Source: Patescibacteria group bacterium (GTDB lineage Bacteria > Patescibacteriota > Minisyncoccia > Portnoybacterales > UBA2143). From it: a stretch of DNA of 64,000 nucleotides. A model generated the notes under the pieces. The model searched no databases. It had not been told where the DNA came from and worked only from the letters and a program-made list of their open reading frames with translations. The stretch is from positions 129,980-193,979 of the forward strand of contig JAHJSM010000001.1 in the NCBI GenBank assembly GCA_018830295.1. Reading direction: 5' to 3'. The number at the start of each line of letters is the position of its first letter. The first letter of the stretch is position 1. Positions 2,929 through 64,000 of this stretch are shown in pieces. Both the position numbers and the translations under genes were made by a program.

Positions 2929-4744
2929 TTAAATTCCATAATATCTTCCGGTTATCTCTTCTGTTTTTTAAATGATCGTTTATTAATTTTTCTACAAACT
3001 CATAATGAAATAAACCCGTCTTGTCTATCTCTGCTTGGCTAAGAATTTCCATCATATATCCCTTCAAATCTTTTTTAAGCCATCTTGTTAAAGGAACGCC
3101 GAACCCCTTTTTATTGCGATAAATAATATTCTTAGGCAATTTATCCTTCATTAATTCTTTCAAAATATATTTCGTCTCAAATCCTCGCAATTTATAATTC
3201 AAAGGAAGAGAATTAACAAAGTCAGCCAAGCGAAAATCTAAAAAGGGCGCTCGCGCTTCTAAACTATTATACATACTCGAGCGATCAACTTTGAATAAAA
3301 TATCATCTTGTAGGTAATATTTCAAGAATAAGGCGTTAATTTTATTTAAATAATTTTTGTCCTGATAATTTTTTAAAAAATCTCCGGCGAATTTAAATAA
3401 TTCTCCCGATTCAACTTTAAACTTAAATAGATTTTCAAACCCGCTAATATATCCGCCTATATTCAAAAAATCGCGAAATAAAGCGGGAAAAGAAACACTC
3501 TGCGCGTATCTTTTGATTTTATAAGAAAGAGTTAAATTTTTATCAGAAACCGGTAGTAATCTTTCTAAAAATTTAGCAAAATTAACTTTAGATTTTAAAT
3601 TGACTAGACCTAATGAGGAAATAATTTTCTGGACCTGATGATTTGGATAACCCATCAATAATTCATCGCCTCCATCTCCGCCTAAAGCAACCTTAACTTT
3701 TTCCGCCGTAAACTCCGAAAGCAGATATGTCGGCAAAATAGAGGGATCGCCAAATGGTTCATCTAATTTTTCAGTAATTTTTGGAATAACATTTAATAAA
3801 TCTTGCGGTCCGAATTCTCGGTGATAATGTTCTGTTTTTAATAATTTGGCCACTTGTTGAGCGTAAGAGGATTCATCAAAACTTGATTCGCTAAATCCAA
3901 TGGAAAATGTTTTAATATCTTCTTTTTGTTTTTTGGCAAAATACGCGATGGTTGAGGAATCAATCCCTCCAGATAAAAAGATTCCGACAGGGACATCCGC
4001 GACTAATCGTCTTTTAACCGAATCGTTTAATAATTCTCCAAAATTTTTAACCGCTGACGGAAAAGCCATTTCTTCTCCGCCAAATTCTATTTGATAATAT
4101 TTACCCAAACTAACTTTATTGTCCTTAAAAACAAGTAATGCTCCATTTTCAAGTTTATGAATATTTTTAAAAATTGTGAGCGGTTGCGGAACATAATCAA
4201 AAGAAAAATATTGTTCAACCGCCAATTGGTTTAATTCTTTTTTAACCGAAGGGTGACATAAAATCGCTTTCATTTCGGAAGCAAAAATTAAAGTATCCCC
4301 CGCTAATGTCCAATAGAACGGTTTTTGCCCATAGCGGTCGCGAGATAAAACAATCTTTTTTTGTAGGCCATCCCAAATAGCGATGGCGAACATCCCGTTA
4401 AATTTTTTAAAACAATCAACGCCATCTTCTTCATATTGATGGACAATAACCTCGCTATCTGTTTGGCTCTTAAACTTATGTCCGCGCGCAATTAAATCTT
4501 TTCTTAACTCTTGAAAATTATAAATTTCTCCGTTGAAAACAACTTGAATTGTTTCATCTTCATTACTAATCGGCTGGCGTCCTTTGTCGCTTAGGTCAAT
4601 AATAGAAAGTCGCTGATGCCCCAGACCAACTCCATCCTGAACAAAAAAACCCTTATCATTGGGTCCGCGATACTCCAGAGAATGCGTCATTCTTTCTAAA
4701 ATATCTCTGTTTCCTTTGCCGTGATAGCCAGCTAATCCGCACAT
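2894..4744 (-). CDS. asnB: Asparagine synthetase (glutamine-hydrolysing), AsnB-like amidotransferase
   Basis: N-terminal MCG (Cys2 nucleophile of the Ntn glutaminase domain) and PP-loop SGGIDSS. Length of 616 aa fits. AsnB paralogues are commonly embedded in glycan clusters, where they amidate sugars. Confidence 0.8.
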   Translation of the reverse strand: MCGLAGYHGKGNRDILERMTHSLEYRGPNDKGFFVQDGVGLGHQRLSIIDLSDKGRQPISNEDETIQVVFNGEIYNFQELRKDLIARGHKFKSQTDSEVIVHQYEEDGVDCFKKFNGMFAIAIWDGLQKKIVLSRDRYGQKPFYWTLAGDTLIFASEMKAILCHPSVKKELNQLAVEQYFSFDYVPQPLTIFKNIHKLENGALLVFKDNKVSLGKYYQIEFGGEEMAFPSAVKNFGELLNDSVKRRLVADVPVGIFLSGGIDSSTIAYFAKKQKEDIKTFSIGFSESSFDESSYAQQVAKLLKTEHYHREFGPQDLLNVIPKITEKLDEPFGDPSILPTYLLSEFTAEKVKVALGGDGGDELLMGYPNHQVQKIISSLGLVNLKSKVNFAKFLERLLPVSDKNLTLSYKIKRYAQSVSFPALFRDFLNIGGYISGFENLFKFKVESGELFKFAGDFLKNYQDKNYLNKINALFLKYYLQDDILFKVDRSSMYNSLEARAPFLDFRLADFVNSLPLNYKLRGFETKYILKELMKDKLPKNIIYRNKKGFGVPLTRWLKKDLKGYMMEILSQAEIDKTGLFHYEFVEKLINDHLKNRRDNRKILWNLIVFQNWAKRYL

Positions 4745-51227: not shown

Positions 51228-52280
51228 TTATTTCCAATTCAATAATTTAAGCGATTTTATTTCATCATTAACATTTTTCGCGGAATAAAACTTTAGATAC
51301 TCCCTTTGAATGCCATTGCATTTATTTCTATAATAACAATTCTGGCATTCGTCTACATAATAAAACATTTTGTCGTAAGCGCCAATAAGTTCTTTTTTAT
51401 TAATAAGCCAATTTTCAGTCGGACCAGAATAATAAGTTTCATATATATTTGGATCGTACTGCGCTAAAACGCCATTAAAATGACAAATATGAAAATTATA
51501 AATAAAATACTTCTTTTTTTTTAAGTCATTTTGATTAAACGCGCAAATCGGAAAACCTTCAAAATGAATTTTTCCAGGATATTTATTAACTACTTGAATA
51601 ATTTTTTTACTAGCTCCAGTTAGTTTATATTTTAAGCTCTTATAGGGGCTGCCTATAGCGTGACCAAAAGGCATTAAATTAATTATTCTAACACCTTCTT
51701 GATAATCTTTTTTGTTATTTGAAAATTGGAACAAAAAATCCAATATTTTAATTATATTAGAATCTTTTTTTAAAATAATATCTATGCCGCTTATATTTAA
51801 ATAACTATTAACGGCTCTACTAAAGCCGCGGCGCCACTTCTCGAATATATCGCTCCCATGTCCCGACCAATTACTAAATGTTTTTTGATTATAAAAATTC
51901 ACGGAAACAGCTATGTATACTTTATGTAAATGTTTTTTAACCGACTCTAATTTTTCCCATACTGAATCGTTGGCAAAAGCTAGTCCGTTAGTGTTAAAGG
52001 TTATATAATTTACTTTAGCGTTATTAAATGAAAATTTGATTATTTCAGCAATATCCGGATGAAGAATAACCTCTTGGCCCGTAAAGATAATATTATCCAA
52101 ACCAAGGCTAACCGCCTTAGTTATTTTAATCTTTAATACATCCAACGGAACAAAAGATTTTTTTCTTACTTGAGGTAATTTGCAAATCTCGCACTGAAAA
52201 TTACAAACATCCGAGGCATGAATATACGCTGCCTTTATCGCGTGAAAATTATAAAACGGATAATTATTGTATTTAATCAT
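51228..52280 (-). CDS. Radical SAM protein (family 1)
   Basis: SDVCNFQCEIC, and C-terminal CQNCYYRNKCNGIQREYLKFY. Confidence 0.7.
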   Translation of the reverse strand: MIKYNNYPFYNFHAIKAAYIHASDVCNFQCEICKLPQVRKKSFVPLDVLKIKITKAVSLGLDNIIFTGQEVILHPDIAEIIKFSFNNAKVNYITFNTNGLAFANDSVWEKLESVKKHLHKVYIAVSVNFYNQKTFSNWSGHGSDIFEKWRRGFSRAVNSYLNISGIDIILKKDSNIIKILDFLFQFSNNKKDYQEGVRIINLMPFGHAIGSPYKSLKYKLTGASKKIIQVVNKYPGKIHFEGFPICAFNQNDLKKKKYFIYNFHICHFNGVLAQYDPNIYETYYSGPTENWLINKKELIGAYDKMFYYVDECQNCYYRNKCNGIQREYLKFYSAKNVNDEIKSLKLLNWK

Positions 52281-52291
52281 AGCTTAAGTCG

Positions 52292-53314
52292 TTAAGATAA
52301 TTTCGCGCGTATCGCTTTGATTTCTGCTTCAACTTTTTTCCGCCCAAAAATTTTTACATATTCCTCAAAAATGCCATTACACTCATTAATAAAATAACAG
52401 CCCTTGCAAGCGTTTAAATGATATCTGTATTTTTTCATTTTATCTTTTATTAATTTAATATTTTTTGAAGTTTTTAGCGTGGAATCCATTCCTGAAGAAA
52501 TATTATGCGTCATGAAAAGATCGTAGCAATTTATTTGCTTTTTGTCATTCAAAAAAATTTGGCCGGCAATATCTATTATATGCACATTATTTTTTGTTTT
52601 CTCCAAAATTTCTTTTGGGAAAATACAAAAAGGATAATCTTCAATCTCAACTGATTCAAAATTGTCCAATAAATCAATAAAATTTAATCCAAAATTACTT
52701 AATTCTTTTAGCGGAACAACTAATTTTTTAAAAATATGTTTAGCGCTTCCTATTGGCTGGATATTTAACAAATCAATATTCTTTACTCCTAATTTTATGT
52801 CGCGCGTTATTAATTGACGGAGATAAGGAAAGTTTTTTTTCCAAACAAGATGAGTAACTAAAACTGATTTTGGATTTACGGAAAGACAATTTCTTATTCC
52901 CCGTGTGGTTTTTATAAAACTGCCCTTATTTTTTGTCCAAGATTCATGTAATTTTGCGTTGTGGCCATAAAGCGTAATATTAATACTATCAAAAATAGAA
53001 AAAACTTTTTTCGCAAAAGTATTATTCGCTAATGTTATCCCATTTGAAGTTAAATATATTTTTTTATACATCTCTCTCGCCTTTTCGGATAGTATTAGAA
53101 AATCCGGATGAATTGTTGGCTCCCCGCCAATAATTTCAATTACATGATATCCAGCCCGAGCCCCTGCTTTTATATCTTTAAGTATCTCAGCCGTTGAGCG
53201 CGGTTTATATAAACGCGGCGTTCCGCAACCAAGACAGCGGCAATTACAAGGACCTTCTGTTGTGACGGTAAAAACTTTATTCCACTTTTTTTGCTTAACT
53301 ACATTGTTATTCAT
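52292..53314 (-). CDS. Radical SAM protein (family 1)
   Basis: GPCNCRCLGC, IGGEPTIHP, YGHNAKLHE...KGSF, C-terminal CKGCYFINECNGIFEEY. Confidence 0.75.
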   Translation of the reverse strand: MNNNVVKQKKWNKVFTVTTEGPCNCRCLGCGTPRLYKPRSTAEILKDIKAGARAGYHVIEIIGGEPTIHPDFLILSEKAREMYKKIYLTSNGITLANNTFAKKVFSIFDSINITLYGHNAKLHESWTKNKGSFIKTTRGIRNCLSVNPKSVLVTHLVWKKNFPYLRQLITRDIKLGVKNIDLLNIQPIGSAKHIFKKLVVPLKELSNFGLNFIDLLDNFESVEIEDYPFCIFPKEILEKTKNNVHIIDIAGQIFLNDKKQINCYDLFMTHNISSGMDSTLKTSKNIKLIKDKMKKYRYHLNACKGCYFINECNGIFEEYVKIFGRKKVEAEIKAIRAKLS

Positions 53315-53323
53315 AAGATTGGT

Positions 53324-54367
53324 TTATTTATTAAATATTTCCGAATATTTAATAAATCGTTTCAAAAGTTTTTTATAGATAAACTTATCTCCGTCAAATA
53401 CACTGCCGTACATAAAATTATTGTTAATCTTGGAAGTGGCGCCATCGCCGATACCTAACAGGCTGGCATTATGGACTCTGTTATTGTAAATTTGAACATT
53501 TATCGCGTCAAACCGATCTGCCAACCCGCTAAAAGGGAATGCCCCATAACCAGCTCTTTCAAGTATTTCCAATCCTTGATTTTTCCAAGATATTCTTTCT
53601 TTCACCGTTGGACCCTTATATGTGCCATCATGCCAAACTAAAGTCGCTGGGTTATGTTCAAAATAATACAAATGTATCTGGTTTGGCTTCATATCAACAA
53701 TTTGAACAACATCATTCAAGAAAGAAGTTTGCGATTGATCCTTTAAGCCGCAAATCAACTCTAAATTTACCAAAATTCCAAGCTTCTTGCATTTTTCAAC
53801 CAACTCTTTGATTGACTTTCTTGGAGTAAAAGATCGATTGTTTGATCCTAATACTTTTTTATCCAACGATTGCGCGCCTATAGTTAATCTATTTATGTTG
53901 TATTTTTTTAAAATTTCAAGCTTGTTTTTATTTAATGTTTTTGGACAGCCCTCAAATGAAGAATGGGCGTTTTTAAAATTAAAATATTTATGTAAATTTT
54001 TTAATAATTCATCTAAAGCATTTTCAGAGAGAATTGAAGGAGTGCCGCCTCCGAAATAAAGAGTGTCAAAACCTACCCCATTAAAAATTGAAGCAAATCT
54101 TCTAATTTCTTTAATTAAGCCGTTTGTATATTTATCCGCTTTTTCCCGCGAACTGGGGATTGAAAAACAATCGCAAAAATAACAAGCGCTTTGACAATAA
54201 GGTATATGGATATAGAGACCTATTTTATTATTATTTTTTTTTATAAATTTTATCTCCTCTTCCCATTTATCTAATATTAAATCAGCGGCCAAATCTTTCG
54301 CCTTTTTGCCAAACATAAACTCCTGATAATATTTATATTTTTTGTTGATGCAGCTAATAATTTTCAT
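53324..54367 (-). CDS. HemN-like radical SAM protein (class C radical SAM methyltransferase-like / HemW-like)
   Basis: LYIHIPYCQSACYFCDC and LYFGGGTPS. Confidence 0.75.
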   Translation of the reverse strand: MKIISCINKKYKYYQEFMFGKKAKDLAADLILDKWEEEIKFIKKNNNKIGLYIHIPYCQSACYFCDCFSIPSSREKADKYTNGLIKEIRRFASIFNGVGFDTLYFGGGTPSILSENALDELLKNLHKYFNFKNAHSSFEGCPKTLNKNKLEILKKYNINRLTIGAQSLDKKVLGSNNRSFTPRKSIKELVEKCKKLGILVNLELICGLKDQSQTSFLNDVVQIVDMKPNQIHLYYFEHNPATLVWHDGTYKGPTVKERISWKNQGLEILERAGYGAFPFSGLADRFDAINVQIYNNRVHNASLLGIGDGATSKINNNFMYGSVFDGDKFIYKKLLKRFIKYSEIFNK

Positions 54368-54418
54368 TTACGCCTAAGGCCTTTTGTAAAATGTTTTTAA
54401 GCAAAATTAAGTATCTTA

Positions 54419-57400
54419 TTATAATGCATTGCTCTTATTGATTAAATTATAAACCTTTTTCTCGTCAAAAAAGAATAAAGAACATGCGTATCTCTCAAGC
54501 GGATCTGTGGGTAAAAACACCAAATCTCCCTTAAATTTTATTTTGTTTAACTTTTTTAAGGAATTAATTGCCTCTTTAAAATTTGTTTTAAAGTCAGCAT
54601 TAAAAAACTTTTTAAAACTTTTTTGCGAAAAACACAGCCGGCAAGATAACTGCTGCAGGATAAAATACCTCATTTCATCCTTAAGATTGTATTCTAGCGC
54701 CCAGTAATTTTTTTCATTTGGATTAAAACCAAAGCTTTTTTCTCTGGAAATAAGATGATGCTGCGAAGAATTAAAAATATACGAACTTGCCCTGGTGCCT
54801 AAGGCGAATAATGAGCAAGGAGAAGAAAAGTTTATTGGAGAAGTATAGTCATAATCATACTTATACGACGCTTTAAAATTTTTATTGTAAAATACAGGTT
54901 CAGCGGATGAAAAAATTTCAAACCCCTTATCTATAATATAATACTCTAATTTATCTTCCATTGATTTTAATTTTTGTCGCGCTTCACCAGCTTTTTTATT
55001 AAGTTTTTTATTAAAAGAACAATAATTATTATTACAATACTTTTCCAAATATTCTTGCGTCGGCTTTAAGGGATATATTGTAATCGTATCGGGACGCATT
55101 TTGGTTAATTCTATAAAACTATCCACCACTATTTCGGCTGTATCATTCTTAAGCCCAACCATTATGTCGGTATTTACCTCAAAACCAAATTCCTTGGCCT
55201 TGGAAATAAGTTCTGGTAAAAATTTATAATCTCCATAATTTCTTTTCGTATAAGTTCGCACTTTATTATTAAAAGTTTGCACGCCCATACTTATTCGATT
55301 AAATCCAAATTGTTTAAGTAATTTCAACTTTTTTATTGAAATGCTTTGGGGATTAGATTCAAAAGTTTTTTCTCCATCTTCTTTAAATTTAAAATATCTG
55401 AATAAAATACTTAACAACCCGCTAAGCTGCTTTTCTGATAATATTGAAGGCGTGCCACCACCAATATATAAGCTACTAAATTCTGCGTCAGTAAATGTAT
55501 TTTTAAAAAATTTAATTTGCTTAATTAAGTTTTTAATATAATCCTCTAATTTTTCTTTATTGGCAATCTCTGAATAATACATACAATAACTGCACTTAGA
55601 CTCGCAAAATGGAATGTGGATATAAAAATTTAAAACATCATTTACTTTTTTGTTTTTAATTAAATGGATATGGCTTTCCCATTTCTTCCTTATTAGATCA
55701 GCGCCAACAAACCTTTTTTCTCCCACCCAATGCATCAAATCAGCAAGAAAAAAAATATTATAGTATGGTTTATAATCTTTTAAAAAGTTTTTGTATAATT
55801 CATAATTTTTTTTAGGAGAGTTTTTTTTCTTGATAACAGGTTTAAATTCTTTCCACCCAAAAATTTCCGGATATTCGCGCCATGGACCTTCGCAAATTGA
55901 ATAAAAATCACATTTTTTACAATTAGAACCCCTGCTTTTGCCACGATTAACTCTGTATTTCTTGTAATCATCAATTTTGAACATATCTTCAACCACCATT
56001 GCATCAGGTATGATTTGCTCAGCAATATATTTTTCATAATCCTTCATAAAACAATAAGGTATTGCTTCTGTCATTACTCTTTTGCCGGCTTTTATGCCAA
56101 TATCTAATCCCTTTTTTACATATGGCATAATCTCCGACTTTTTTGGCACAATTAATTTTCTATTTTTCCAAGCGGCGCCTGCTATATGAACAAATGCAAA
56201 TTGAAACTGATCTACATTTAAATCAACCAATAGTTTTGCTATTTTAGGCAGATAGCGATAATTAAATTTTGTAATCACCGTGTTCGTTATGACTCTCTGG
56301 TTTAAACTTTTTAAATTTTTAATACCTTGAATGGTTTGGTCAAAACTGCCTTTTACATTAGTCAAATAATCATGTAACTTTCCTGTATGTCCGTGAACGG
56401 CTGGCGAAAACTCATTTGCCCCAGCTTCTATTGTTTTGCGACAAAATTCTTTATACGCGAACATGCGGCCATTGGTTTGGACCTGAATAATTTGATACCC
56501 CAATTTTTTCGCACGCCTTATTAAATCCAAAAAATTAGGATGTATCGTGGGCTCGCCGCCAGTAAAAACGACTGATTGGCAACTTTCCTTTGCTTGAATT
56601 AATTCTTTTATAATCTCCGATTTTTTTCTAAACAAACATTTTTTTCTTTTGTCGCCTTGTACACAAAAACAACAATGATTATTACATTGGTATCCTATTT
56701 TTATATCTATTCTCTTATTCTCCTTCAGCTTTAATCCTTCTTTCTCTGCTATATTGGATTTATTTTTCATTGAATCAACAAAATTATTAAGAGTATTATC
56801 AATTGCTTTATTTGATTGTAAGATTTTATGGTCAAATAATTCCTTTGTATTTAATTCAATTTTATTAATTTCTTTATGAAAATCCAAATTTTTCAAACAT
56901 TCTAAGATATTATTATCCTTAATATTGCTAATTTTAAATTTTTTCTTAACGGACTGAAATTCTTTTAACATAATAGCGTTGGTAAAAAAAACATCACCAT
57001 TGCAATCAACAACCATCCCAGTATTAAAGAAGAATAAATCGTTATCTATGTCAACATTTTTGACATAGATTTCTCTATGCTTTTTTAAAAATTCTGATAC
57101 GAAATTTAGCTGTCTTTCTAAAATTTTTATTTTTTGAAAGGACCATGGTCTATAAGCTGCCGGTAAAAAATTAAACCCCTTAACGCCTAAATTATGTACA
57201 TAAACAAAATTTTGGAAAAACTTATCCACGGTATTCGGAGCTATCACCATGTTTACAATCACGCGAGATTGATTATTCTTGATTAAATTGATTGTTTTCT
57301 GATAAGTTTGAGGAGAAATACCTTTTCTATTTAGCATTTGAGAAGTTTTATCTCCATCAATACTAATCGAAAGATTCACTTTATTTTCTTTAAGCCAGCT

Positions 57401-57688
57401 AAAAATATTATCATCCAATAAAACGCCGTTAGTGCATAATTCAATATCTATCTTATGACTTTTTTTTCTAACATAAGCAATGATATTTTTTAACAAATCA
57501 ATTTTTAAGAGGGGCTCACCGCCAAAAATTTTTATTTTGCCTTTGTTATCGCCCAATAAACACAAATATAAATCAATTGCCTTAAAAGCAATTGATTTGT
57601 TGATAAATATATTTTTTTTTAGCACCGCGCAATACTTGCAATCTAGATTACATTGGTTGGTGACAATAATTATTAATGGATACTTCAT
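54419..57688 (-). CDS. Triple radical SAM-domain fusion protein (1089 aa): anSME-like domain plus family 1 domain plus HemN-like domain
   Basis: Domain 1: TNQCNLDCKYC, FGGEPLL. Domain 2: YQCNNHCCFC, FTGGEPTIHP, VHGHTGKLHD, CKKCDFYSICEGPWREY. Domain 3: NFYIHIPFCESKCSYCM, LYIGGGTPS. Confidence 0.75.
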   Translation of the reverse strand: MKYPLIIIVTNQCNLDCKYCAVLKKNIFINKSIAFKAIDLYLCLLGDNKGKIKIFGGEPLLKIDLLKNIIAYVRKKSHKIDIELCTNGVLLDDNIFSWLKENKVNLSISIDGDKTSQMLNRKGISPQTYQKTINLIKNNQSRVIVNMVIAPNTVDKFFQNFVYVHNLGVKGFNFLPAAYRPWSFQKIKILERQLNFVSEFLKKHREIYVKNVDIDNDLFFFNTGMVVDCNGDVFFTNAIMLKEFQSVKKKFKISNIKDNNILECLKNLDFHKEINKIELNTKELFDHKILQSNKAIDNTLNNFVDSMKNKSNIAEKEGLKLKENKRIDIKIGYQCNNHCCFCVQGDKRKKCLFRKKSEIIKELIQAKESCQSVVFTGGEPTIHPNFLDLIRRAKKLGYQIIQVQTNGRMFAYKEFCRKTIEAGANEFSPAVHGHTGKLHDYLTNVKGSFDQTIQGIKNLKSLNQRVITNTVITKFNYRYLPKIAKLLVDLNVDQFQFAFVHIAGAAWKNRKLIVPKKSEIMPYVKKGLDIGIKAGKRVMTEAIPYCFMKDYEKYIAEQIIPDAMVVEDMFKIDDYKKYRVNRGKSRGSNCKKCDFYSICEGPWREYPEIFGWKEFKPVIKKKNSPKKNYELYKNFLKDYKPYYNIFFLADLMHWVGEKRFVGADLIRKKWESHIHLIKNKKVNDVLNFYIHIPFCESKCSYCMYYSEIANKEKLEDYIKNLIKQIKFFKNTFTDAEFSSLYIGGGTPSILSEKQLSGLLSILFRYFKFKEDGEKTFESNPQSISIKKLKLLKQFGFNRISMGVQTFNNKVRTYTKRNYGDYKFLPELISKAKEFGFEVNTDIMVGLKNDTAEIVVDSFIELTKMRPDTITIYPLKPTQEYLEKYCNNNYCSFNKKLNKKAGEARQKLKSMEDKLEYYIIDKGFEIFSSAEPVFYNKNFKASYKYDYDYTSPINFSSPCSLFALGTRASSYIFNSSQHHLISREKSFGFNPNEKNYWALEYNLKDEMRYFILQQLSCRLCFSQKSFKKFFNADFKTNFKEAINSLKKLNKIKFKGDLVFLPTDPLERYACSLFFFDEKKVYNLINKSNAL

Positions 57689-57732
57689 AACGCTTCATAT
57701 TCCAATTCTGTTAATTATTTGTCTATATTTTT

Positions 57733-58029
57733 TTACCACGAACCGTGAGAACCGTGGGAACCGTGGGAACCGTGGGAACCGTGGGAACCGTGGGAAGAAT
57801 GCGAACCGTGCGAAGCGTGGGAACAATGAGTTGGACAGGGAGTACAACAGTTACATGTCCCAGCCATAGTAGGATCAGGCTTCATTAAGCCGCCGCTAGC
57901 TAGTCCAATAGTTATCAAAGCCAACCCAATTTTTCGAATGCTTTTTTTACTAATTTTCCCCTCTTCTTCGTTTAAAAAATTTCTAAGATTTTTTTTAATT
58001 TTGGGAACTTGATGGTTTTTATTTTTCAT
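57733..58029 (-). CDS. His-Xaa-Ser repeat precursor-like peptide (HxsA-like; candidate RiPP precursor), with internal hydrophobic anchor
   Basis: C-terminus ...GTCNCCTPCPTHCSHASHGSHSSHGSHGSHGSHGSHGSHGSW. Hand translation of the reverse complement was verified through the stop. Hydrophobic segment IGLALITIGLASGGL after a 33-aa basic N-region. Confidence 0.65.
   Translation of the reverse strand: MKNKNHQVPKIKKNLRNFLNEEEGKISKKSIRKIGLALITIGLASGGLMKPDPTMAGTCNCCTPCPTHCSHASHGSHSSHGSHGSHGSHGSHGSHGSW
57741..57830. repeat. Perfect 9-nt tandem repeat (GGAACCGTG)n encoding (HGS)n
   Basis: gaaccgtg(g/a)gaaccgtgggaaccgtgggaaccgtgggaaccgtgggaaccgtggga... with at least 6 perfect and 3 degenerate units. Confidence 0.85.
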
Positions 58030-58051
58030 AGATTATCTAAATAATTAATGA

Positions 58052-58930
58052 CTATTTCGTCGGAAAAAAATCTTTATGAACTTTATTGTGACAATAAGAC
58101 GCCTTGAACTTGTCATAAAAAAAAGACAAATCCCGGCTAAAATAATATTTACAATATTGATAAATTCTAAGTTCAGGGATCGACTCGCATAGAATAGAGT
58201 CGTTTTTGGCCACTGCAATCAAATACGCGATATTGTCGCTAAACTCGCCCGCGCATGAAGTTGTTCTATCGGTAGCCGCGTCATCTTCCTGCTCTACTTG
58301 TGAATCACACATCAGAGTCGAATCAAAAATTACTGGTTCTTTACTTTGAAAGCTTCTGTGATAATTTTCGCATATTGCCCCCAAACCCGCTTTTATCTCG
58401 TCTAAATCATCAGGTAATTCTGTTAATTTTTGCTCTTTTTCAATTAAAATATAAGGTAAAAAAGCTTCTCTACATTCCGTTACATATTGCTCTAAACCTA
58501 TCCCATTTTTCAACTTATCGGTCAAAACAAAGAAAAAATCATAATCGCGTTCACACCTCTCTTTTCTTAGTTCAAAATCAATTTCTCGATTCTCGTAATA
58601 GCATAAATCTCTATTATTCTGATCTGCGGCTCGCATGACAAGCAATCTTTTAAGTATTGTAGGTAATTCGCTATCTGAATCAGCTTCTGTAAAATCCAAT
58701 TTATCTAAATTAAAATCAAGTATGCATTTTTCTTTTTCTTTATTAATAATTTGATTAAACCGATCCTCCGCGTCAATTGCTTCTTCTGTAATAACTTCTT
58801 CTTCAACTATCAAGCCATCGGCTATTAAATCTTTATTTTTAAAATAATAATTCCCTACAATTGATAATGAAATTAAAATAACGATAAAAACCGCTATTAA
58901 CCAAATATTTTGTTTAAATATTTCTAGCAT
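58052..58930 (-). CDS. Membrane-anchored Cys-rich protein (292 aa), function unknown
   Basis: N-terminal TM (IWLIAVFIVILISLSIVG). At least 12 Cys in the soluble domain. Confidence 0.45.
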   Translation of the reverse strand: MLEIFKQNIWLIAVFIVILISLSIVGNYYFKNKDLIADGLIVEEEVITEEAIDAEDRFNQIINKEKEKCILDFNLDKLDFTEADSDSELPTILKRLLVMRAADQNNRDLCYYENREIDFELRKERCERDYDFFFVLTDKLKNGIGLEQYVTECREAFLPYILIEKEQKLTELPDDLDEIKAGLGAICENYHRSFQSKEPVIFDSTLMCDSQVEQEDDAATDRTTSCAGEFSDNIAYLIAVAKNDSILCESIPELRIYQYCKYYFSRDLSFFYDKFKASYCHNKVHKDFFPTK

Positions 58931-60378
58931 AACTTTTTATTAAATTGGTGACGACTAGTAGCCCATTCCAAGAAAATCTTTTTTATTTTATCATCTTCTT
59001 GCATTTTTTTAAAGATATAATCAAAGATACCTTGACTTAATTGACATCTACTACTTGTGGGTAATTGAGGAAAAATATTGCCCGATTCAACATAACTAAT
59101 AATAGGACAAGTTCCGCAATAAGGTTTATAGACGCAATTGTCACAAGGCAAATTGTCCAAACAAGAAGCTAAACACATCGTTCTTATAGTCGGATTATCA
59201 ATAATATCATCGTAACTATCCGTTAAGACGCTTCCTATTTTAAAAGTTTCTTCACCTATCATCCGTCCCTCATCACATGTATAAACATCTCCGTTATAAT
59301 TATAGAGCGCTTGACCTATACCAGCTCCACAAGGCGAGCGTAATTCAAAATAATTCGGGTCCTTATCAGTTAGTATTTTTGTCAGCATGTTGGTGGCAAT
59401 CATTTCTCGAAAGCGAAGCCCTTTTTTAATATTAAGCTCTAAAATATAATCCAAACTCTTTCTGTAAAATTCTAAAAACTGACTCGTTGAATATCCTATT
59501 TTCTGCCAGGTCTTCCTAGCCATTCCCAAAGGCGTGAGCGGTCTTAAAATAATATTATCCAATCCTAACTCAATGTACTGGTCAATAATTTTTTCATAAA
59601 CAGGAAGAGAATAACGCGTAACTGTTGTCAGAGCGCCTGGTTGGTAAATATAATACTTTTTATATTTTTTAAGTATTTTTTTTAACCACTTAACCGTATT
59701 TTGATGACTATTTTTATTTATTAAAATTCTATTTTTATTATGTAATTTCTCCGGTCCATCTAGGGAAGTGCAGAAAATAACTCCTTTCTTAAGCAAATAA
59801 TTCATTTTTTCTTCGTCCATTCCTGTAAAATTAGAAACCAATCTTAATTCTAAATCCCTTTTTTCTTCCTTGTTCTTTTTTAGGGCATACTCAATAATAA
59901 ACTTAACAACTGGCCAATTTAATAACGGCTCTCCACCTTGGAATTCAATGGCAATATTTTTGTTAGGAGAAGAAAAAATGTAATCAACAATTTTTCTTGC
60001 AGTTTCCTCGCTCAAATCTTTATTCTTATCGTCCACGAAGCACGAAGATGCTTGGCAATAAACGCATTTATGGTCACAACGCAAAGTAACAACAACTATA
60101 TGAAGACTGGGTCCAGCAGAAAAAAGAAATTGATTTTTTCTTCTGTATTTTTCAACATGTTGCTCTAAATTAAATTCATCGCCAATAAAGTTTTTTCTTT
60201 TCAGCTCTAGATATTTTGAAGATTTTTTTTCTAATTTTCCCTGAAGGTATTGATCAAAATCCATGGGAGATAAAAAAATATAATCTCCAATATCATTAGT
60301 TAAAAGATAGTCTTTATTCGTTTTTTTAAATCTGAAAAAACCCAATTTTGAATAATTTACTTTTTTACAATCAATCAT
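58924..60378 (-). CDS. Radical SAM peptide maturase with C-terminal SPASM domain (anSME/HxsB-like)
   Basis: RCDHKCVYCQ, QGGEPLLN, and the C-terminal Cys-rich SPASM-like CGAGIG...YTCDEG...CLASCLDNLPCDNCVYKPYCGTCP. Confidence 0.75.
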   Translation of the reverse strand: MIDCKKVNYSKLGFFRFKKTNKDYLLTNDIGDYIFLSPMDFDQYLQGKLEKKSSKYLELKRKNFIGDEFNLEQHVEKYRRKNQFLFSAGPSLHIVVVTLRCDHKCVYCQASSCFVDDKNKDLSEETARKIVDYIFSSPNKNIAIEFQGGEPLLNWPVVKFIIEYALKKNKEEKRDLELRLVSNFTGMDEEKMNYLLKKGVIFCTSLDGPEKLHNKNRILINKNSHQNTVKWLKKILKKYKKYYIYQPGALTTVTRYSLPVYEKIIDQYIELGLDNIILRPLTPLGMARKTWQKIGYSTSQFLEFYRKSLDYILELNIKKGLRFREMIATNMLTKILTDKDPNYFELRSPCGAGIGQALYNYNGDVYTCDEGRMIGEETFKIGSVLTDSYDDIIDNPTIRTMCLASCLDNLPCDNCVYKPYCGTCPIISYVESGNIFPQLPTSSRCQLSQGIFDYIFKKMQEDDKIKKIFLEWATSRHQFNKKLC

Positions 60379-62522: not shown

Positions 62523-62978
62523 TTACAACTCAATACAATATTCCGGATCAACGCAGTCGCAGCCAAAAACCGTTCCATCGCTATCGTCATTCAAAGCCGC
62601 GTTGTTAACGCCCTCCAATGTCGCATTCAAAACAAAACCTTGGTTATTAGACGAAACCCAATATTCGTAAGTCCCCATACCCGGATCGCCTGGAATTGAA
62701 GCAATATACCCACTTCCTTCTATGGCTGTTTTCATAACTGCCCATTGATTACTACCGCTCACCCCAGGATAACCTGCATCCGAGTGGTCATCGTAATACA
62801 GCGTCAGACCCAAAGCGATCTGTCTCATATCACTTACCCTTCGGACATCTCGCGCTTTCTCTCGAGCTGTGTTCAAAGAAACCAAAACAATTGTTGACAA
62901 AACGCCAATAATCGTAATAACCACCAACAACTCAATCAAGGTAAAACCTTTTTGATTCTTCTTAAAAATTTGTAACAT
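62523..62978 (-). CDS. pilA: Type IV major pilin (PilA-like)
   Basis: QKG|FTLIELLVVITIIGVLSTIVLVSLNTAREKAR is a canonical class III signal peptide and N-terminal alpha-helix. C-terminal Cys pair (GCDCVDPEYC). Confidence 0.8.
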   Translation of the reverse strand: MLQIFKKNQKGFTLIELLVVITIIGVLSTIVLVSLNTAREKARDVRRVSDMRQIALGLTLYYDDHSDAGYPGVSGSNQWAVMKTAIEGSGYIASIPGDPGMGTYEYWVSSNNQGFVLNATLEGVNNAALNDDSDGTVFGCDCVDPEYCIEL

Positions 62979-63019: not shown

Positions 63020-63808
63020 TTAAAAAACAAACAAGAAGTTTATCCACAATTGTCCGCAGAGCATCACTAGAACAGTCGCGCCCGCCAGAAATGGTCCGAA
63101 GGGGATTTGAGATTTGAGTCCTTTTTTGCCAAAAATAATCAGGGCAACGCCGACAACCGCCCCCGTCAAAAAAGCGAGAAAAAGCGCCGCTAAAATATTG
63201 GGCCAGCCCAAAATCAATCCCATTAAAAAAGCCAATTTAACATCGCCCATCCCCATCCATTTCCCTTTTGAAAAAAGAACCAGCGACAAAAAAAATCCAC
63301 CAGCCAATATTGCGCTTAATATTGAAAATTTGAAAATTGAAAATTCATTGAAAATTGAAAATTGAAAATTGAAAATTCCAGCAATAATTATCGCGGGAAA
63401 AACAATTTTGTCGGGGATAATGTAATGCCGTAAGTCATAGACGAAAATGACTATCAAAAAACAAATAATTATCAGATAATAAAATAAATTTAGAGTTTGA
63501 AAATTAAGAATTGAAAATTCATTGAAAATTGAAAATTGAAAATTGAAAATTAATAGAAATAGACACGCAGTGGTTATTTCTATGACCGGATACTGCCAAC
63601 TGATTTTCTTCCCGCAAGAACGGCATTTGCCAAGCAAGAAAACAAAACTCAAAACCGGAATTAAATCATACCACGACAAAACAGCCCCGCATTGAGGACA
63701 ATGGGAGCGCTTCGCGACAATTGATTCCTTGGTTTCTAAGCGGCAAATGACAACATTCAAAAAACTGCCAACAGAAAGACCAAGGATGAAGATGAGAAAA
63801 TAAAGCAT
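63020..63808 (-). CDS. pilD: Prepilin peptidase PilD (A24 family, with N-terminal zinc-binding domain)
   Basis: N-terminal GSFLNVVI...CPQCG...CRSCG, first Asp motif DLRHYIIPD, second GMGDVKLAF. Two Phe-rich insertions are encoded by heptanucleotide repeats. Confidence 0.8.
   Translation of the reverse strand: MLYFLIFILGLSVGSFLNVVICRLETKESIVAKRSHCPQCGAVLSWYDLIPVLSFVFLLGKCRSCGKKISWQYPVIEITTACLFLLIFNFQFSIFNEFSILNFQTLNLFYYLIIICFLIVIFVYDLRHYIIPDKIVFPAIIIAGIFNFQFSIFNEFSIFKFSILSAILAGGFFLSLVLFSKGKWMGMGDVKLAFLMGLILGWPNILAALFLAFLTGAVVGVALIIFGKKGLKSQIPFGPFLAGATVLVMLCGQLWINFLFVF
63324..63377. repeat. Heptanucleotide tandem repeat (GAAAATT)n inside pilD, patch 1 (4 perfect plus about 3 interrupted units)
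   Basis: gaaaatt t gaaaattgaaaatt cattgaaaattgaaaattgaaaattgaaaatt. Confidence 0.8.
63499..63551. repeat. Heptanucleotide tandem repeat (GAAAATT)n inside pilD, patch 2 (4 perfect units plus flanking degenerate units). About 39 nt are identical to patch 1
   Basis: gaaaattcattgaaaattgaaaattgaaaattgaaaatt is shared by 63339-63377 and 63513-63551. Confidence 0.8.
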
Positions 63809-63816
63809 TATTTATT

Positions 63817-63846
63817 GGGGACAGTCCCCTCTTGGGGACAGTCCCC
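63817..63846. repeat. Direct pair of family B palindromic units (GGGGACAGTCCCC x2), 9 nt upstream of the pilD start
   Basis: ggggacagtcccc-tctt-ggggacagtcccc. Confidence 0.75.
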
Positions 63847-63889: not shown

Positions 63890-64000
63890 ATTACGGCTGA
63901 ATACAGTACTCTGGAGCTCCTGCTGTATCAGCGCAGTTACAGCCCAAAATCGTTCCGTCAAGATCATCCCTCAAAGCGGCGTTATTGTCATCCTCTAATG
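63890..64000 (-). CDS. Type IV pilin paralogue, C-terminal fragment (5' end outside the window)
   Basis: The reverse complement ends ...GCNCADTAGAPEYCIQP*. The nucleotide sequence is clearly similar to the 3' end of the 62523..62978 pilin gene (...GCDCVDPEYCIEL*). Confidence 0.5.

What the first reader, a model, noticed from the sequence alone, without database searches (positions are those of the whole stretch)
63020..63808. Heptanucleotide (GAAAATT)n tandem repeats, duplicated at two sites, inside the prepilin peptidase gene: potential phase-variation switch
The PilD CDS contains two patches (63324-63377 and 63499-63551) each with four perfect plus several imperfect copies of a 7-nt unit. 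The patches share a 39-nt identical stretch about 174 bp apart. They encode Phe-rich inserts (IFNFQFSIFNEFSI...) flanking the catalytic DLRHYIIPD region. Seven is not a multiple of three, so gain or loss of one unit by slipped-strand mispairing would frameshift pilD and switch off processing of every pilin or pseudopilin. That is a classic contingency-locus design. The 174-bp-spaced direct repeats could also mediate deletion of the first catalytic Asp region.
Basis: seen in the sequence. Interest (0 to 1): 0.55.

Follow-up and report, generated by a model that had tools for sequence, protein, structure and literature searches.

The report
Heptamer microsatellites inside prepilin peptidase gene
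Two short 7-base tandem repeats lie in frame inside the gene for the enzyme that matures all pilus subunits of an ultrasmall (Patescibacteria) bacterium. Relatives carry such repeats at the same two spots, and one natural variant lost two units and broke the gene, so the repeats can switch the gene off, although no switching was seen in this organism.

Summary
The gene at 63020-63808 (-) is a type IV prepilin peptidase. It carries two (GAAAATT)n tracts, each with 4.4 perfect units plus degenerate units. The tracts share 43 identical nt exactly 174 nt apart and are translated as NFQFSIF-type peptides.

Comparison changes the picture. Heptanucleotide tracts with at least 9 different unit sequences occupy the same two loops of PilD in 14 of 90 non-redundant Patescibacteria relatives. 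The only other perfect heptamer tracts in 231 kb of flanks lie in leader-peptide codons of pilin genes. The perfect tract core is invariant, synonymous sites included, in five lineages whose other synonymous sites are saturated.

Near-identical natural alleles differ by tract indels. One allele lost exactly two units and is split by the frameshift. Others carry in-frame 18- and 33-nt deletions.

Against a classical switch: the tracts are short, the window allele is identical in five sampled sequences, 0 of 96 loci gathered without regard to intactness is frameshifted, and the same loops also tolerate palindromic-element insertions.

Verdict: these are real, actively turning-over coding microsatellites. 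They are most likely a contingency-type weak point of the pilus system (about 0.45). Adaptive, reversible switching is not shown. I found no sign of deletion between the two repeats.

The parts
63020..63808 (-). pilD, a type IV prepilin peptidase (A24 family), 262 aa and intact (the ON state)
   Evidence: Pfam A24_N_bact plus Peptidase_A24. It is 100% identical to NCBI MBU2579534.1 from a 744,622-bp Patescibacteria contig. C37, C40, C62, C65, D125 and G188-D189 are invariant in 30 homologs. The best structural match is FlaK 3s0x.
63497..63551 (-). Site-1 heptanucleotide tract, residues 86-104, at the end of TM2, the loop and the start of TM3. Layout on the coding strand: (AATTTTC)4, AATG, AATTTTC, AATTCTT, AATTTTC.
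   Evidence: TRF and frame mapping. It is a clean 54-nt insertion relative to P0003 and P0005. AF2 places helix 72-91, a loop 92-102 with pLDDT below 50, and helix 103-128.
63521..63551 (-). Perfect core of the site-1 tract, 31 nt or 4.4 units
   Evidence: window arrays.
63321..63377 (-). Site-2 heptanucleotide tract, residues 144-163, at the end of TM4, the turn and the start of TM5. Layout: (AATTTTC)4, AATG, (AATTTTC)2, A, AATTTTC...
   Evidence: TRF and frame mapping. It is identical in window, L005 and L001-3. The same structure occurs in homologs 61-74% identical in protein sequence. AF2 places helix 133-152, a turn 153-155 and helix 156-180.
63347..63377 (-). Perfect core of the site-2 tract, 31 nt. 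The 10 codons it covers are invariant in five diverged lineages.
63335..63377 (.). 43-nt direct repeat, copy A. It is identical to 63509-63551, 174 nt away.
63509..63551 (.). 43-nt direct repeat, copy B
63434..63436 (-). Codon of the first catalytic Asp (D125), lying between the two tracts
   Evidence: Invariant column D125. Coordinates read.
63242..63244 (-). Codon of the second catalytic Asp (D189, in the GMGD motif), downstream of both tracts
   Evidence: Invariant columns G188 and D189. Coordinates read.
62523..62978 (-). Pilin gene directly downstream, with leader MLQIFKKNQKG|FTLIELL. It is a substrate of PilD and has no SSR in its leader.
   Evidence: Pfam N_methyl 7.9e-11 and translation.
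63891..64000 (-). 3' end of a paralogous pilin gene upstream of pilD (...GCNCADTAGAPEYCIQP*), cut by the window edge
   Evidence: The C-terminus resembles that of the downstream pilin.

Best explanation
The two patches are translated heptanucleotide microsatellites (unit AATTTTC on the coding strand). They sit in the two hairpin loops (TM2-TM3 and TM4-TM5) of a Patescibacteria prepilin peptidase, on the side of the membrane opposite the two catalytic aspartates. Seven and three share no factor, so the tract reads as the same 7-residue peptide (NFQFSIF) in every frame, and that peptide is tolerated there.

The tracts are slipped-strand indel hot-spots. A gain or loss of 1 or 2 units shifts the frame and removes at least Asp189, which stops maturation of every pilin. 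A change of 3 units, or slippage between the longer sub-repeats, only alters loop length.

I think the tracts are kept pure, at about 4.4 units, by repeated unit turnover and/or selection for mutability. That would make pilD a low-rate contingency (phase-variable) locus, together with neighbouring pilin genes that carry the same kind of tract in their leader-peptide codons. The window allele is in the ON configuration.

Shown: the anatomy, in-frame translation, family-wide recurrence at these two sites, nucleotide-level invariance of the core, and natural in-frame and out-of-frame tract variants in relatives. Inferred: the membrane side of the loops, turnover as the cause of purity, reversibility, and any adaptive use such as phage escape or host detachment.
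For: 1. Recurrence at the same sites. Among 90 non-redundant pilD loci, 14 carry at least one perfect 7-nt array of 3 or more units. That is 22 arrays in 68.6 kb of pilD against 5 in 231 kb of flanks, while periods 4-12 other than 7 give 1 and 3 arrays.
2. All 5 flank arrays lie between the ATG and the G|FTLIEL cleavage motif of pilin genes.
3. TRF, which allows imperfect arrays, gives period-7 densities of 0.27/kb in pilD, 0.23/kb in pilin leader zones and 0.019/kb elsewhere.
4. The units differ between lineages but the tracts are all 21-36 nt, with a mode of 31 nt. Units seen: AATTTTC, GTATCTG, GTTTCAA, TTGGAAA, TTTGGGA, TTTCGGA, ATTTACT, AATCCTA, AATACTT.
5. Codon identity among five lineages that are 61-74% identical in protein is 185/206 inside the site-2 patch against 725/1457 elsewhere (Fisher 6e-31). 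The 10 codons of the perfect core never vary.
6. Inside NFQFSIF patches Ser is TCA in 20/21 cases against 18% outside, and Phe after Ile is TTC in 30/31 against 31% outside.
7. L213 equals the intact alleles L216-218 except for a 14-nt loss, which is 2 units, and this splits pilD. L213 and two of the three intact alleles (L217, L218) carry neighbouring ENA accession numbers.
8. Alleles that cluster at 90% or more identity differ by in-frame 33-nt and 18-nt deletions within the site-2 patch.
9. Between strains differing by 4-12 substitutions per 8-9 kb, the only indels lie in repeat DNA, and 3 of 4 of them are in pilus genes.
10. Heptanucleotide SSR phase variation is established elsewhere, including an intragenic (AATTTTG)14 with a frameshift in hmw1a (PMC2651432, PMC8262952).
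Against: 1. The tracts have only 4 perfect units, so the expected slippage rate is low. Proven heptanucleotide switches have 13-38 units (PMC2651432).
2. The window allele shows no variation in five sequences.
3. None of the 96 loci collected without regard to intactness is frameshifted. The three frameshifted loci and the one nonsense allele came only from a search aimed at short fragments.
4. Of those four disrupted alleles only one is a tract slip. The others are a T-run frameshift, an out-of-frame loop deletion and a nonsense codon. This also fits plain pseudogenisation.
5. The site-2 segment is 65 aa in 33 of 33 motif-bearing homologs.
6. The same loops and pilin leaders also hold in-frame palindromic insertions. 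That points to permissive sites rather than purpose-built switches.
7. A general mutational bias toward 7-nt SSRs in bacteria is already proposed (Mrazek 2007, as cited in PMC4679880 and PMC4692102), so period 7 alone does not show selection for frameshifting.
8. (GAAAATT)3 also occurs intergenically in many phyla, including the CPR (candidate phyla radiation, another name for Patescibacteria).
9. No read-level data were available.
Confidence: 0.45

Rival explanations
1. Passive low-complexity insert. Heptamer SSRs arise from a general polymerase-slippage bias and simply persist where the encoded peptide does not matter, namely the outer loops of PilD and the cleaved pilin leaders. They have no switching role, and frameshift variants are just deleterious accidents.
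For: The same sites hold unrelated in-frame insertions: translated palindromic elements such as VILSEAKNL...LRMT and VIPNLIGNP...WIPAFAGMT in PilD loops, and a 72-nt palindromic insert in a pilin leader that is polymorphic between L206 and L207. In-frame length variants are tolerated. Heptamer over-representation is known (PMC4679880, PMC4692102). None of 96 loci gathered without regard to intactness is OFF. The unit is common in intergenic DNA of many phyla.
Against: It does not explain why the perfect core is invariant at synonymous sites in lineages that are saturated elsewhere. It does not explain why perfect tracts are absent from the intergenic and other DNA of the same loci and from the other 63 kb of the window. 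It also does not explain why non-triplet units dominate in coding DNA, where units divisible by 3 would cost nothing.
Confidence: 0.3
2. Protein-level structural element. The 7-residue periodic, Phe-rich peptides are selected as helical (heptad) extensions of the TM2-TM3 and TM4-TM5 hairpins, and the DNA repeat is only the way they arose.
For: AF2 models both patches as helix end, short turn, helix start. Tracts of different units converge on about 10 codons. The site-2 segment length is fixed at 65 aa when the motif is present.
Against: Peptides from different units have little in common (NFQFSIF, GIWYLVS, LGFGIWD, NPKSYIL, SSFKFQV). Close relatives lack one or both patches entirely: P0003 lacks site 1, and P0005 and P0006 lack both. 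Selection on the protein cannot hold synonymous sites constant. Model confidence is lowest in the patches, with pLDDT 48-57.
Confidence: 0.1
3. Nucleic-acid element embedded in the CDS. The repeats act as RNA or DNA, for example as binding sites for a cold-shock or S1-type protein, or as an internal or antisense promoter, in the way heptamer repeats just upstream of start codons have been proposed to act in other bacteria.
For: Nucleotide-level conservation. (GAAAATT)n lies 9-10 nt upstream of start codons of rpmA- and rsmH-like genes in other CPR genomes. There are weak sigma-70-like matches TTGAAA-17-GAAAAT on the antisense strand within both tracts. PMC4679880 proposes such roles for TAACTGA repeats.
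Against: Other lineages have quite different units at the same sites, so what is conserved is periodicity rather than sequence. The promoter matches are 9/12 and only about 1.6 sd above the shuffled expectation. There is no Rfam match, and there are no inverted copies nearby.
Confidence: 0.05
4. Deletion cassette. The two 43-nt direct repeats, 174 nt apart, mediate an in-frame deletion of TM3-Asp125-TM4 and produce an inactive 204-aa protein.
For: The geometry is right: 43 identical nt, with a spacing that is a multiple of 3. Slippage between longer sub-repeats within a patch does occur in relatives.
Against: A search with the predicted 204-aa product returned only full-length proteins of 234 aa or more among the best 120 hits. 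Many homologs have a tract at only one site. Such a deletion would be irreversible.
Confidence: 0.02

Closest known systems
SSR contingency loci (slipped-strand phase variation), for example Neisseria opa CTCTT repeats in signal-peptide codons (own knowledge), H. influenzae tetranucleotide loci, and the heptanucleotide repeats of hmw1A/hmw2A (PMC2651432, PMC8262952)
   Same: A non-triplet perfect tandem repeat lies inside, or at the 5' end of, genes for surface structures, and unit loss gives a frameshift null allele. The repeat is kept pure while the flanks diverge. The companion tracts in pilin leader codons mirror the opa layout.
   Different: There are only about 4 units, against 7-38. The target is a cytoplasmic-membrane processing enzyme, which acts as a master switch, rather than an adhesin or glycosyltransferase. 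There are two tracts per gene, placed mid-gene and translated as part of the mature enzyme. The organisms are environmental Patescibacteria, not host-adapted pathogens. Neither a switching rate nor reversibility has been measured. OFF alleles are rare in assemblies.
Heptameric SSRs / STRR-type repeats of cyanobacteria, Xanthomonas and Beggiatoaceae (PMC4692102, PMC4679880; Mazel 1990 from own knowledge)
   Same: Short arrays of 2-6 units of a 7-nt unit. The very unit GAAAATT is found as short arrays in Bacteroidota, Thermoanaerobaculia, cyanobacteria and CPR, often just upstream of start codons or as inverted pairs.
   Different: Those repeats are overwhelmingly intergenic and dispersed in many copies. 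Here the arrays are coding, in frame, and restricted to two sites of one gene in 64 kb.
Rickettsia palindromic elements inserted in frame into genes (own knowledge; reviewed in PMC10969869)
   Same: Repeat DNA is tolerated in frame at permissive surface sites of proteins. Relatives of this PilD do carry palindromic inserts at the same loops, for example the P0026 DNA GTCATTCCC...GGGAATGAC.
   Different: The window's patches are direct tandem repeats with no inverted arms, so they are not such elements.
Type IV prepilin peptidases PilD/TcpJ and the archaeal preflagellin peptidase FlaK (GxGD aspartyl proteases)
   Same: The domain pair A24_N_bact plus Peptidase_A24, four Cys, two catalytic Asp, and adjacent pilin genes. 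FlaK is the best structural match.
   Different: SSR-encoded inserts of 18-20 residues in two loops are not a described feature of the family, and close relatives lack them.

Membership tests
Peptidase A24 (type IV prepilin peptidase, PilD) | N-terminal A24_N_bact domain with a four-Cys motif, plus the Peptidase_A24 membrane domain | tested here: met
   Pfam 3.3e-33 and 7.3e-18, both above the curated cut-offs. C37, C40, C62 and C65 are invariant.
Peptidase A24 (type IV prepilin peptidase, PilD) | Two catalytic aspartates, the second in a GxGD motif | tested here: met
   D125 (YDLRHY) and G188-D189 (GMGD) are invariant in 30 homologs.
Peptidase A24 (type IV prepilin peptidase, PilD) | Fold of a GxGD membrane protease | tested here: inconclusive
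   In the Foldseek PDB search the top hit is FlaK 3s0x_B with probability 0.95, but E is 0.74 and TM is 0.39/0.51. There is no PDB hit by sequence.
Peptidase A24 (type IV prepilin peptidase, PilD) | Genomic association with substrates that carry the G|F(T/S)LxE class III leader | tested here: met
   Pilin at 62523-62978 with KG|FTLIELL and N_methyl 7.9e-11. A second pilin 3' end lies upstream.
SSR contingency (phase-variable) locus | Perfect tandem repeat, unit not divisible by 3, inside the CDS, placed so that a frameshift destroys function | tested here: met
   Two arrays of 4.4 perfect 7-nt units, both upstream of the D189 codon and one upstream of the D125 codon.
SSR contingency (phase-variable) locus | Tract length in the range known to give high switching rates | tested here: not met
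   Four units meets the permissive screening threshold of 3 or more units for 7-mers, but proven heptanucleotide tracts have 13-38 units (PMC2651432).
SSR contingency (phase-variable) locus | Unit-number polymorphism between closely related strains, with ON and OFF alleles | tested here: inconclusive
   It was not seen for the window allele in 5 sequences. It was seen in a homolog about 70% identical: 4 units intact in L216-218 against 2 units split in L213. None of 96 loci gathered without regard to intactness is OFF.
SSR contingency (phase-variable) locus | Repeat maintained (purity and presence) while flanking sequence diverges | tested here: met
   The core codons are invariant in 5 lineages. 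Patch codon identity is 90% against 50% elsewhere.
SSR contingency (phase-variable) locus | High-frequency, reversible switching within a clonal population | not testable with these tools
   This needs raw reads or culture. Only assembled consensus sequences were available.
Dispersed heptameric SSR / STRR family | Many copies dispersed through the genome, mainly intergenic | tested here: not met
   There are only two arrays in 64 kb, both coding and both in pilD. The unit itself does occur intergenically in other genomes.
In-frame palindromic element (RPE-like / MITE-like) | Terminal inverted repeats or a hairpin-forming sequence | tested here: not met
   The repeat finder reports no inverted arms within the patches, only direct copies.

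The most novel reading that the evidence does not exclude
Patescibacteria of the Parcubacteria type run a pilus 'phasome'. Short heptanucleotide (and some octanucleotide) SSRs are kept pure by selection in two outer loops of the master prepilin peptidase and in the cleaved leader peptides of individual pilins. They would give stochastic, reversible ON/OFF control of all pili (through pilD) or of single pilins. This would let these episymbionts hedge between host attachment or DNA uptake and escape from pilus-dependent phage. It would be the first set of contingency loci described in the candidate phyla radiation, and the first in which a prepilin peptidase is the switch.
Probability: 0.35. Interest if true: 0.8.

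Novelty: new variant of a known kind. Interest (0 to 1): 0.6.

Why it matters
Type IV pili are the organelles that Patescibacteria use to bind hosts, move and probably take up DNA (PMC12206443). My literature searches returned no paper linking phase variation with this phylum or with a prepilin peptidase. If the tracts are switches, one 7-nt slip would turn off every pilus of the cell. That would be a simple bet-hedging device in organisms with very little regulation.

Even if the tracts are not adaptive, three things follow:
- A conserved membrane enzyme can carry actively turning-over non-triplet microsatellites in two loops for long evolutionary periods.
- 'Split' or 'partial' pilD calls in metagenome bins may be slip alleles, or assembly breaks at these tracts, rather than decayed genes.
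- The tracts are ready-made markers for strain-level population dynamics, testable directly on existing reads.

Tried and rejected
1. Dispersed mobile repeat. None lies in pilD or next to a pilin motif, and there are no further copies in the window. The unit is therefore common, but the patch is not a copy of a mobile element.

2. Concerted evolution of the two patches within each gene. The effect is weak: 8.75 against 8.30 identities out of 11, permutation p about 0.05. I do not rely on it.

3. My first enrichment count was misread. I took gene-relative offsets as absolute coordinates and wrongly placed the arrays of L160, L172 and L174 inside pilD. This was corrected, and the arrays turned out to lie in pilin leaders.

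4. Deletion product of the 174-nt repeats. None was found.

5. Known RNA family. None was found at the patches.

6. Internal promoter. There are only 9/12 consensus matches, and the total count in the region is within 2 sd of the shuffles.

7. Solved-structure homolog by sequence. None was found. By fold there is only a weak FlaK match.

8. Truncated alleles. A search with residues 1-104 returned only short proteins. Four could be inspected at the DNA level, and only one is a tract slip.

9. Literature. No paper was found that links prepilin peptidase or Patescibacteria with phase variation.
Full report
WHAT IS THERE

The window has 35.5% G+C. Its last complete gene, 63020-63808 on the minus strand, encodes a 262-aa protein with the two Pfam domains of bacterial type IV prepilin peptidases: A24_N_bact at 3.3e-33 and Peptidase_A24 at 7.3e-18. 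It is identical to NCBI MBU2579534.1 from a 744,622-bp Patescibacteria contig. The four cysteines, Asp125 and the Gly188-Asp189 of GMGD are invariant in 30 homologs.

The gene lies between two paralogous pilin genes. One is 62523-62978, with leader MLQIFKKNQKG|FTLIELL. The other is a 3' end at 63891-64000.

- TRF reports period-7 arrays at 63321-63377 and 63497-63551.
- Each contains a perfect 31-nt core, at 63347-63377 and 63521-63551. These are the only perfect period-7 arrays of 3 or more units in the 64 kb.
- All seven exact (GAAAATT)2 matches in the window fall in the patches.
- The patches share 43 identical nucleotides (63335-63377 = 63509-63551), exactly 174 nt or 58 codons apart.
- On the coding strand the unit is AATTTTC. 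Since 7 and 3 are coprime, three units read NFQFSIF in any frame. The patches encode residues 86-104 and 144-163.
- An AlphaFold2 model (mean pLDDT 75.7) puts each patch at the end of one helix, a short low-confidence turn, and the start of the next helix: 72-91/103-128 and 133-152/156-180.
- From the established topology of PilD/TcpJ (both Asp residues on the cytoplasmic face; own knowledge), I infer that these are the two loops on the outer face. This is an inference and was not tested.

THE WINDOW ALLELE ITSELF LOOKS STABLE

DNA of the closest relatives comes from different samples: L005 (93% aa identity), L001-3 (87%) and L004. The site-2 patch is identical, with the same unit count, in window, L005 and L001-3. 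The site-1 patch is identical in window and L005, and it is a clean 54-nt insertion relative to L001-4. L004 has the site-2 region replaced by a divergent segment between near-identical flanks, a mosaic pattern that points to recombination.

THE FAMILY VIEW CHANGES THE PICTURE

Among 105 anchored homologs, NFQFSIF-type peptides occur at site 1 in 28, at site 2 in 33 and at both in 16. With the motif present, the site-2 segment is always 65 aa, while site 1 varies.

DNA of 90 non-redundant pilD loci shows perfect 7-nt arrays of 3 or more units in 14 genes:
- There are 22 arrays in 68.6 kb of pilD, against 5 in 231 kb of flanks.
- All other periods from 4 to 12 give 1 array in pilD and 3 in the flanks.
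- The arrays sit at the same two loops, but the units differ between lineages: AATTTTC, GTATCTG, GTTTCAA, TTGGAAA, TTTGGGA, TTTCGGA, ATTTACT, AATCCTA, AATACTT.
- Array lengths cluster at 28-36 nt.

The five flank arrays are all in pilin genes, between the start codon and the G|FTLIEL cleavage site. An example is MNNNSKFKIQNSKFTIG|FTLIEL from (AATTCAA)4.5. I first misread their coordinates and corrected this.

With TRF, which allows imperfect arrays, period-7 density is 0.27/kb in pilD, 0.23/kb in pilin leader zones and 0.019/kb elsewhere.

THE TRACT IS CONSERVED AS DNA, NOT ONLY AS PEPTIDE

I compared five lineages that are 61-74% identical in protein: window, P0004, P0026, P0070 and P0087.
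- The 10 codons of the perfect site-2 core are identical in all five. Differences appear only in the degenerate 3' part.
- Where the residues are identical, codons are identical in 185/206 cases in the patch against 725/1457 in the rest of the gene (Fisher 6e-31; the pairs are not independent).
- In all NFQFSIF-like patches Ser is TCA in 20/21 cases (18% outside), and Phe after Ile is TTC in 30/31 (31% outside).

Selection on the peptide alone cannot do this. The cause is either rapid unit turnover, meaning repeated loss and gain, or selection on the repeat itself.

TRACT INDELS DO OCCUR IN NATURE

A search with residues 1-104 returned only short PilD fragments. Four of them lie inside contigs.
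- L213 is identical to three intact alleles (L216-218, from three samples) over about 730 nt, except for a 14-nt deletion. That is exactly two AATTTTC units (4 down to 2) at site 1, and it splits the gene. The downstream part is otherwise undamaged.
- L214 is a frameshift at a T-run about 10 codons upstream of its (GTTTCAA)n tract.
- L215 is an out-of-frame deletion in the site-2 loop.
- L219 is a CAA-to-TAA codon inside the patch, on a contig with only 2.7x coverage.

Within 90% clusters, P0177 lacks 11 residues and P0182 lacks 6 residues of the site-2 patch. Both are in-frame slips between sub-repeats.

I also compared near-identical strains.
- Strains 4-12 substitutions apart over 8-9 kb differ by four indels in total. 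These are one 8-nt unit of (AATGTTAA)n at the 5' end of a pilin gene, 21 nt (three heptamer-like units) upstream of ftsW, and a 72-nt palindromic insert in a pilin leader.
- In a fourth group of alleles (8 substitution columns over a 1.6-kb overlap) the only indel is the 14-nt loss.

WHAT SPEAKS AGAINST A CLASSICAL SWITCH

- Four units is short. Proven heptanucleotide switches have 13-38 units, although 3 or more is used as a screening threshold (PMC2651432, PMC8262952).
- Of 100 sources, only the three found by the targeted search have pilD in two frames. None of the other 96 loci gathered without regard to intactness does (L219 has a stop, not a shift).
- The same loops, and the pilin leaders, also hold in-frame palindromic elements, as expected of merely permissive sites.
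- Heptamers are reported as the most abundant long-SSR class in many bacteria, and a polymerase-slippage bias has been proposed (Mrazek 2007, as cited in PMC4679880 and PMC4692102).
- (GAAAATT)3 occurs in intergenic DNA of many phyla, often just upstream of start codons. None of those hits lies in pilD or near a pilin motif.

MY READING

The patches are active, translated microsatellites at two permissive loops. They make pilD, and some pilin genes, unusually prone to frameshift and to loop-length change. The following together favour a contingency-type role over passive junk, at about 0.45 against 0.30:
- concentration of the tracts in pilus genes;
- purity of the core;
- convergence of different units on the same sites and the same length;
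- the leader-peptide tracts, which copy the opa design (own knowledge);
- the clean two-unit OFF allele.

Rate, reversibility and benefit are unproven. A purely structural role (0.10), an embedded RNA or DNA element (0.05) and a deletion cassette (0.02) are less likely. A search with the predicted 204-aa deletion product found nothing shorter than 234 aa among the best 120 hits. No Rfam family matches the patches, and the promoter-like matches are weak.

COMPARISON AND NOVELTY

The mechanism, slipped-strand mispairing at a non-triplet coding SSR, is well known. The following are not described in the papers I could search:
- the target, a prepilin peptidase;
- the placement, two mid-gene tracts translated as part of the mature enzyme;
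- the companion tracts in pilin leaders;
- the phylum.

I rate it a new variant of a known kind, with interest 0.6. Read mapping on existing metagenomes would settle the question.

Noticed in passing
L160:2920-2953 and 3475-3495; L172:3537-3562; L174:3380-3411; L134:2353-2373: Perfect heptanucleotide arrays lie inside the leader-peptide codons of pilin genes, between the ATG and the G|FTLIEL cleavage motif, all in frame. The units are (AAAACTC)5, (AAAGATC)3, (AATCCGC)3.7, (AATTCAA)4.5 and (TTTTCAA)3. They are the only perfect heptamer arrays outside pilD in 231 kb of flanks.
   Followed up: partly
L206:1640-1711 versus L207:1712; also the leaders in L153, L131, L178, L194, L145, L143: A 72-nt palindromic element (arms CCAGCACCACTTTT / AAAAGTGGTGCTGG) is inserted in frame exactly at the G|FT codons of a pilin leader. 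It is present in one and absent from the other of two strains that differ by 4 substitutions in 8 kb. Similar palindromic inserts lengthen pilin leaders in several other loci and duplicate the cleavage motif.
   Followed up: partly
Homologs P0014, P0016, P0026, P0027, P0034, P0067, P0071, P0080, P0083, P0094, P0096 (site 1); P0023 (site 2); DNA seen in L206:6001-6831: Other PilD relatives carry, at the same loops, in-frame inserts that read like translated palindromic dispersed repeats, such as VILSEAKNL...SLTLRM and VIPNLIGNP...WIPAFAGMT. The P0026 DNA has GTCATTCCC...GGGAATGAC termini. This is reminiscent of Rickettsia palindromic elements.
   Followed up: partly
L209:6161-6196, L210:4524-4559, L211:5689-5716; also L149:2406-2441, L208:8891-8919: An octanucleotide array (AATGTTAA)n sits at the 5' end of a gene downstream of pilD in the pilus cluster. 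Each unit holds an ATG followed shortly by TAA. There are 4 units in two samples and 3 in a third sample of the same species. The same unit recurs in two other lineages.
   Followed up: partly
window:57740-57824 (-), with genes 51228-60378 (-): A 9-nt repeat (GAACCGTGG, 9.4 copies) encodes ...SHGSHSSHGSHGSHGSHGSHGSHGSW*. This is a His-Xaa-Ser repeat peptide (HxsA-like), and it lies directly upstream of a 1089-aa triple radical-SAM protein and among four more radical-SAM/SPASM genes. Radical-SAM or HxsD genes also lie near pilD in L215 and L219.
   Followed up: partly
window:29273-38202 (about 24 copies) and 63817-63846: A dispersed palindromic 13-mer, GGGGGCAGCCCCC or GGGGACAGTCCCC, gives 30 matches with up to 2 mismatches against 0.23 expected. 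The copies occur in pairs or triples. Two copies 17 nt apart lie between the upstream pilin stop and the pilD start codon and could form a strong hairpin.
   Followed up: no
L006-L125, for example L061:122, L017:2560, L087:217, L066:499-568, L022:715: (GAAAATT)3-5 arrays occur in Bacteroidota, Thermoanaerobaculia, cyanobacteria, Saccharibacteria and other CPR. They are often 9-10 nt upstream of a start codon or a tRNA gene, next to arrays of related heptamers, or arranged as inverted pairs about 30 nt apart.
   Followed up: partly
L209:10720-10760 versus L211:10243-10263: A 21-nt insertion (three heptamer-like units ATTCTAA/ATTCAAG) in an imperfect heptamer array about 40 nt upstream of ftsW distinguishes samples of one species.
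   Followed up: no
Alignment A2 (window, L001-L005): pilD of close relatives is mosaic. Blocks of near identity alternate with divergent blocks, and the boundaries lie at or near the two tracts, which suggests frequent recombination within the gene.
   Followed up: no
L173 (contig end), L147, L201; proteins P0121, P0127 ('partial'): Several public contigs and gene calls end at or near these tracts (L173 within its array; P0127's call ends in the site-2 tract). The repeats probably break short-read assemblies and produce 'partial' pilD annotations.
   Followed up: no
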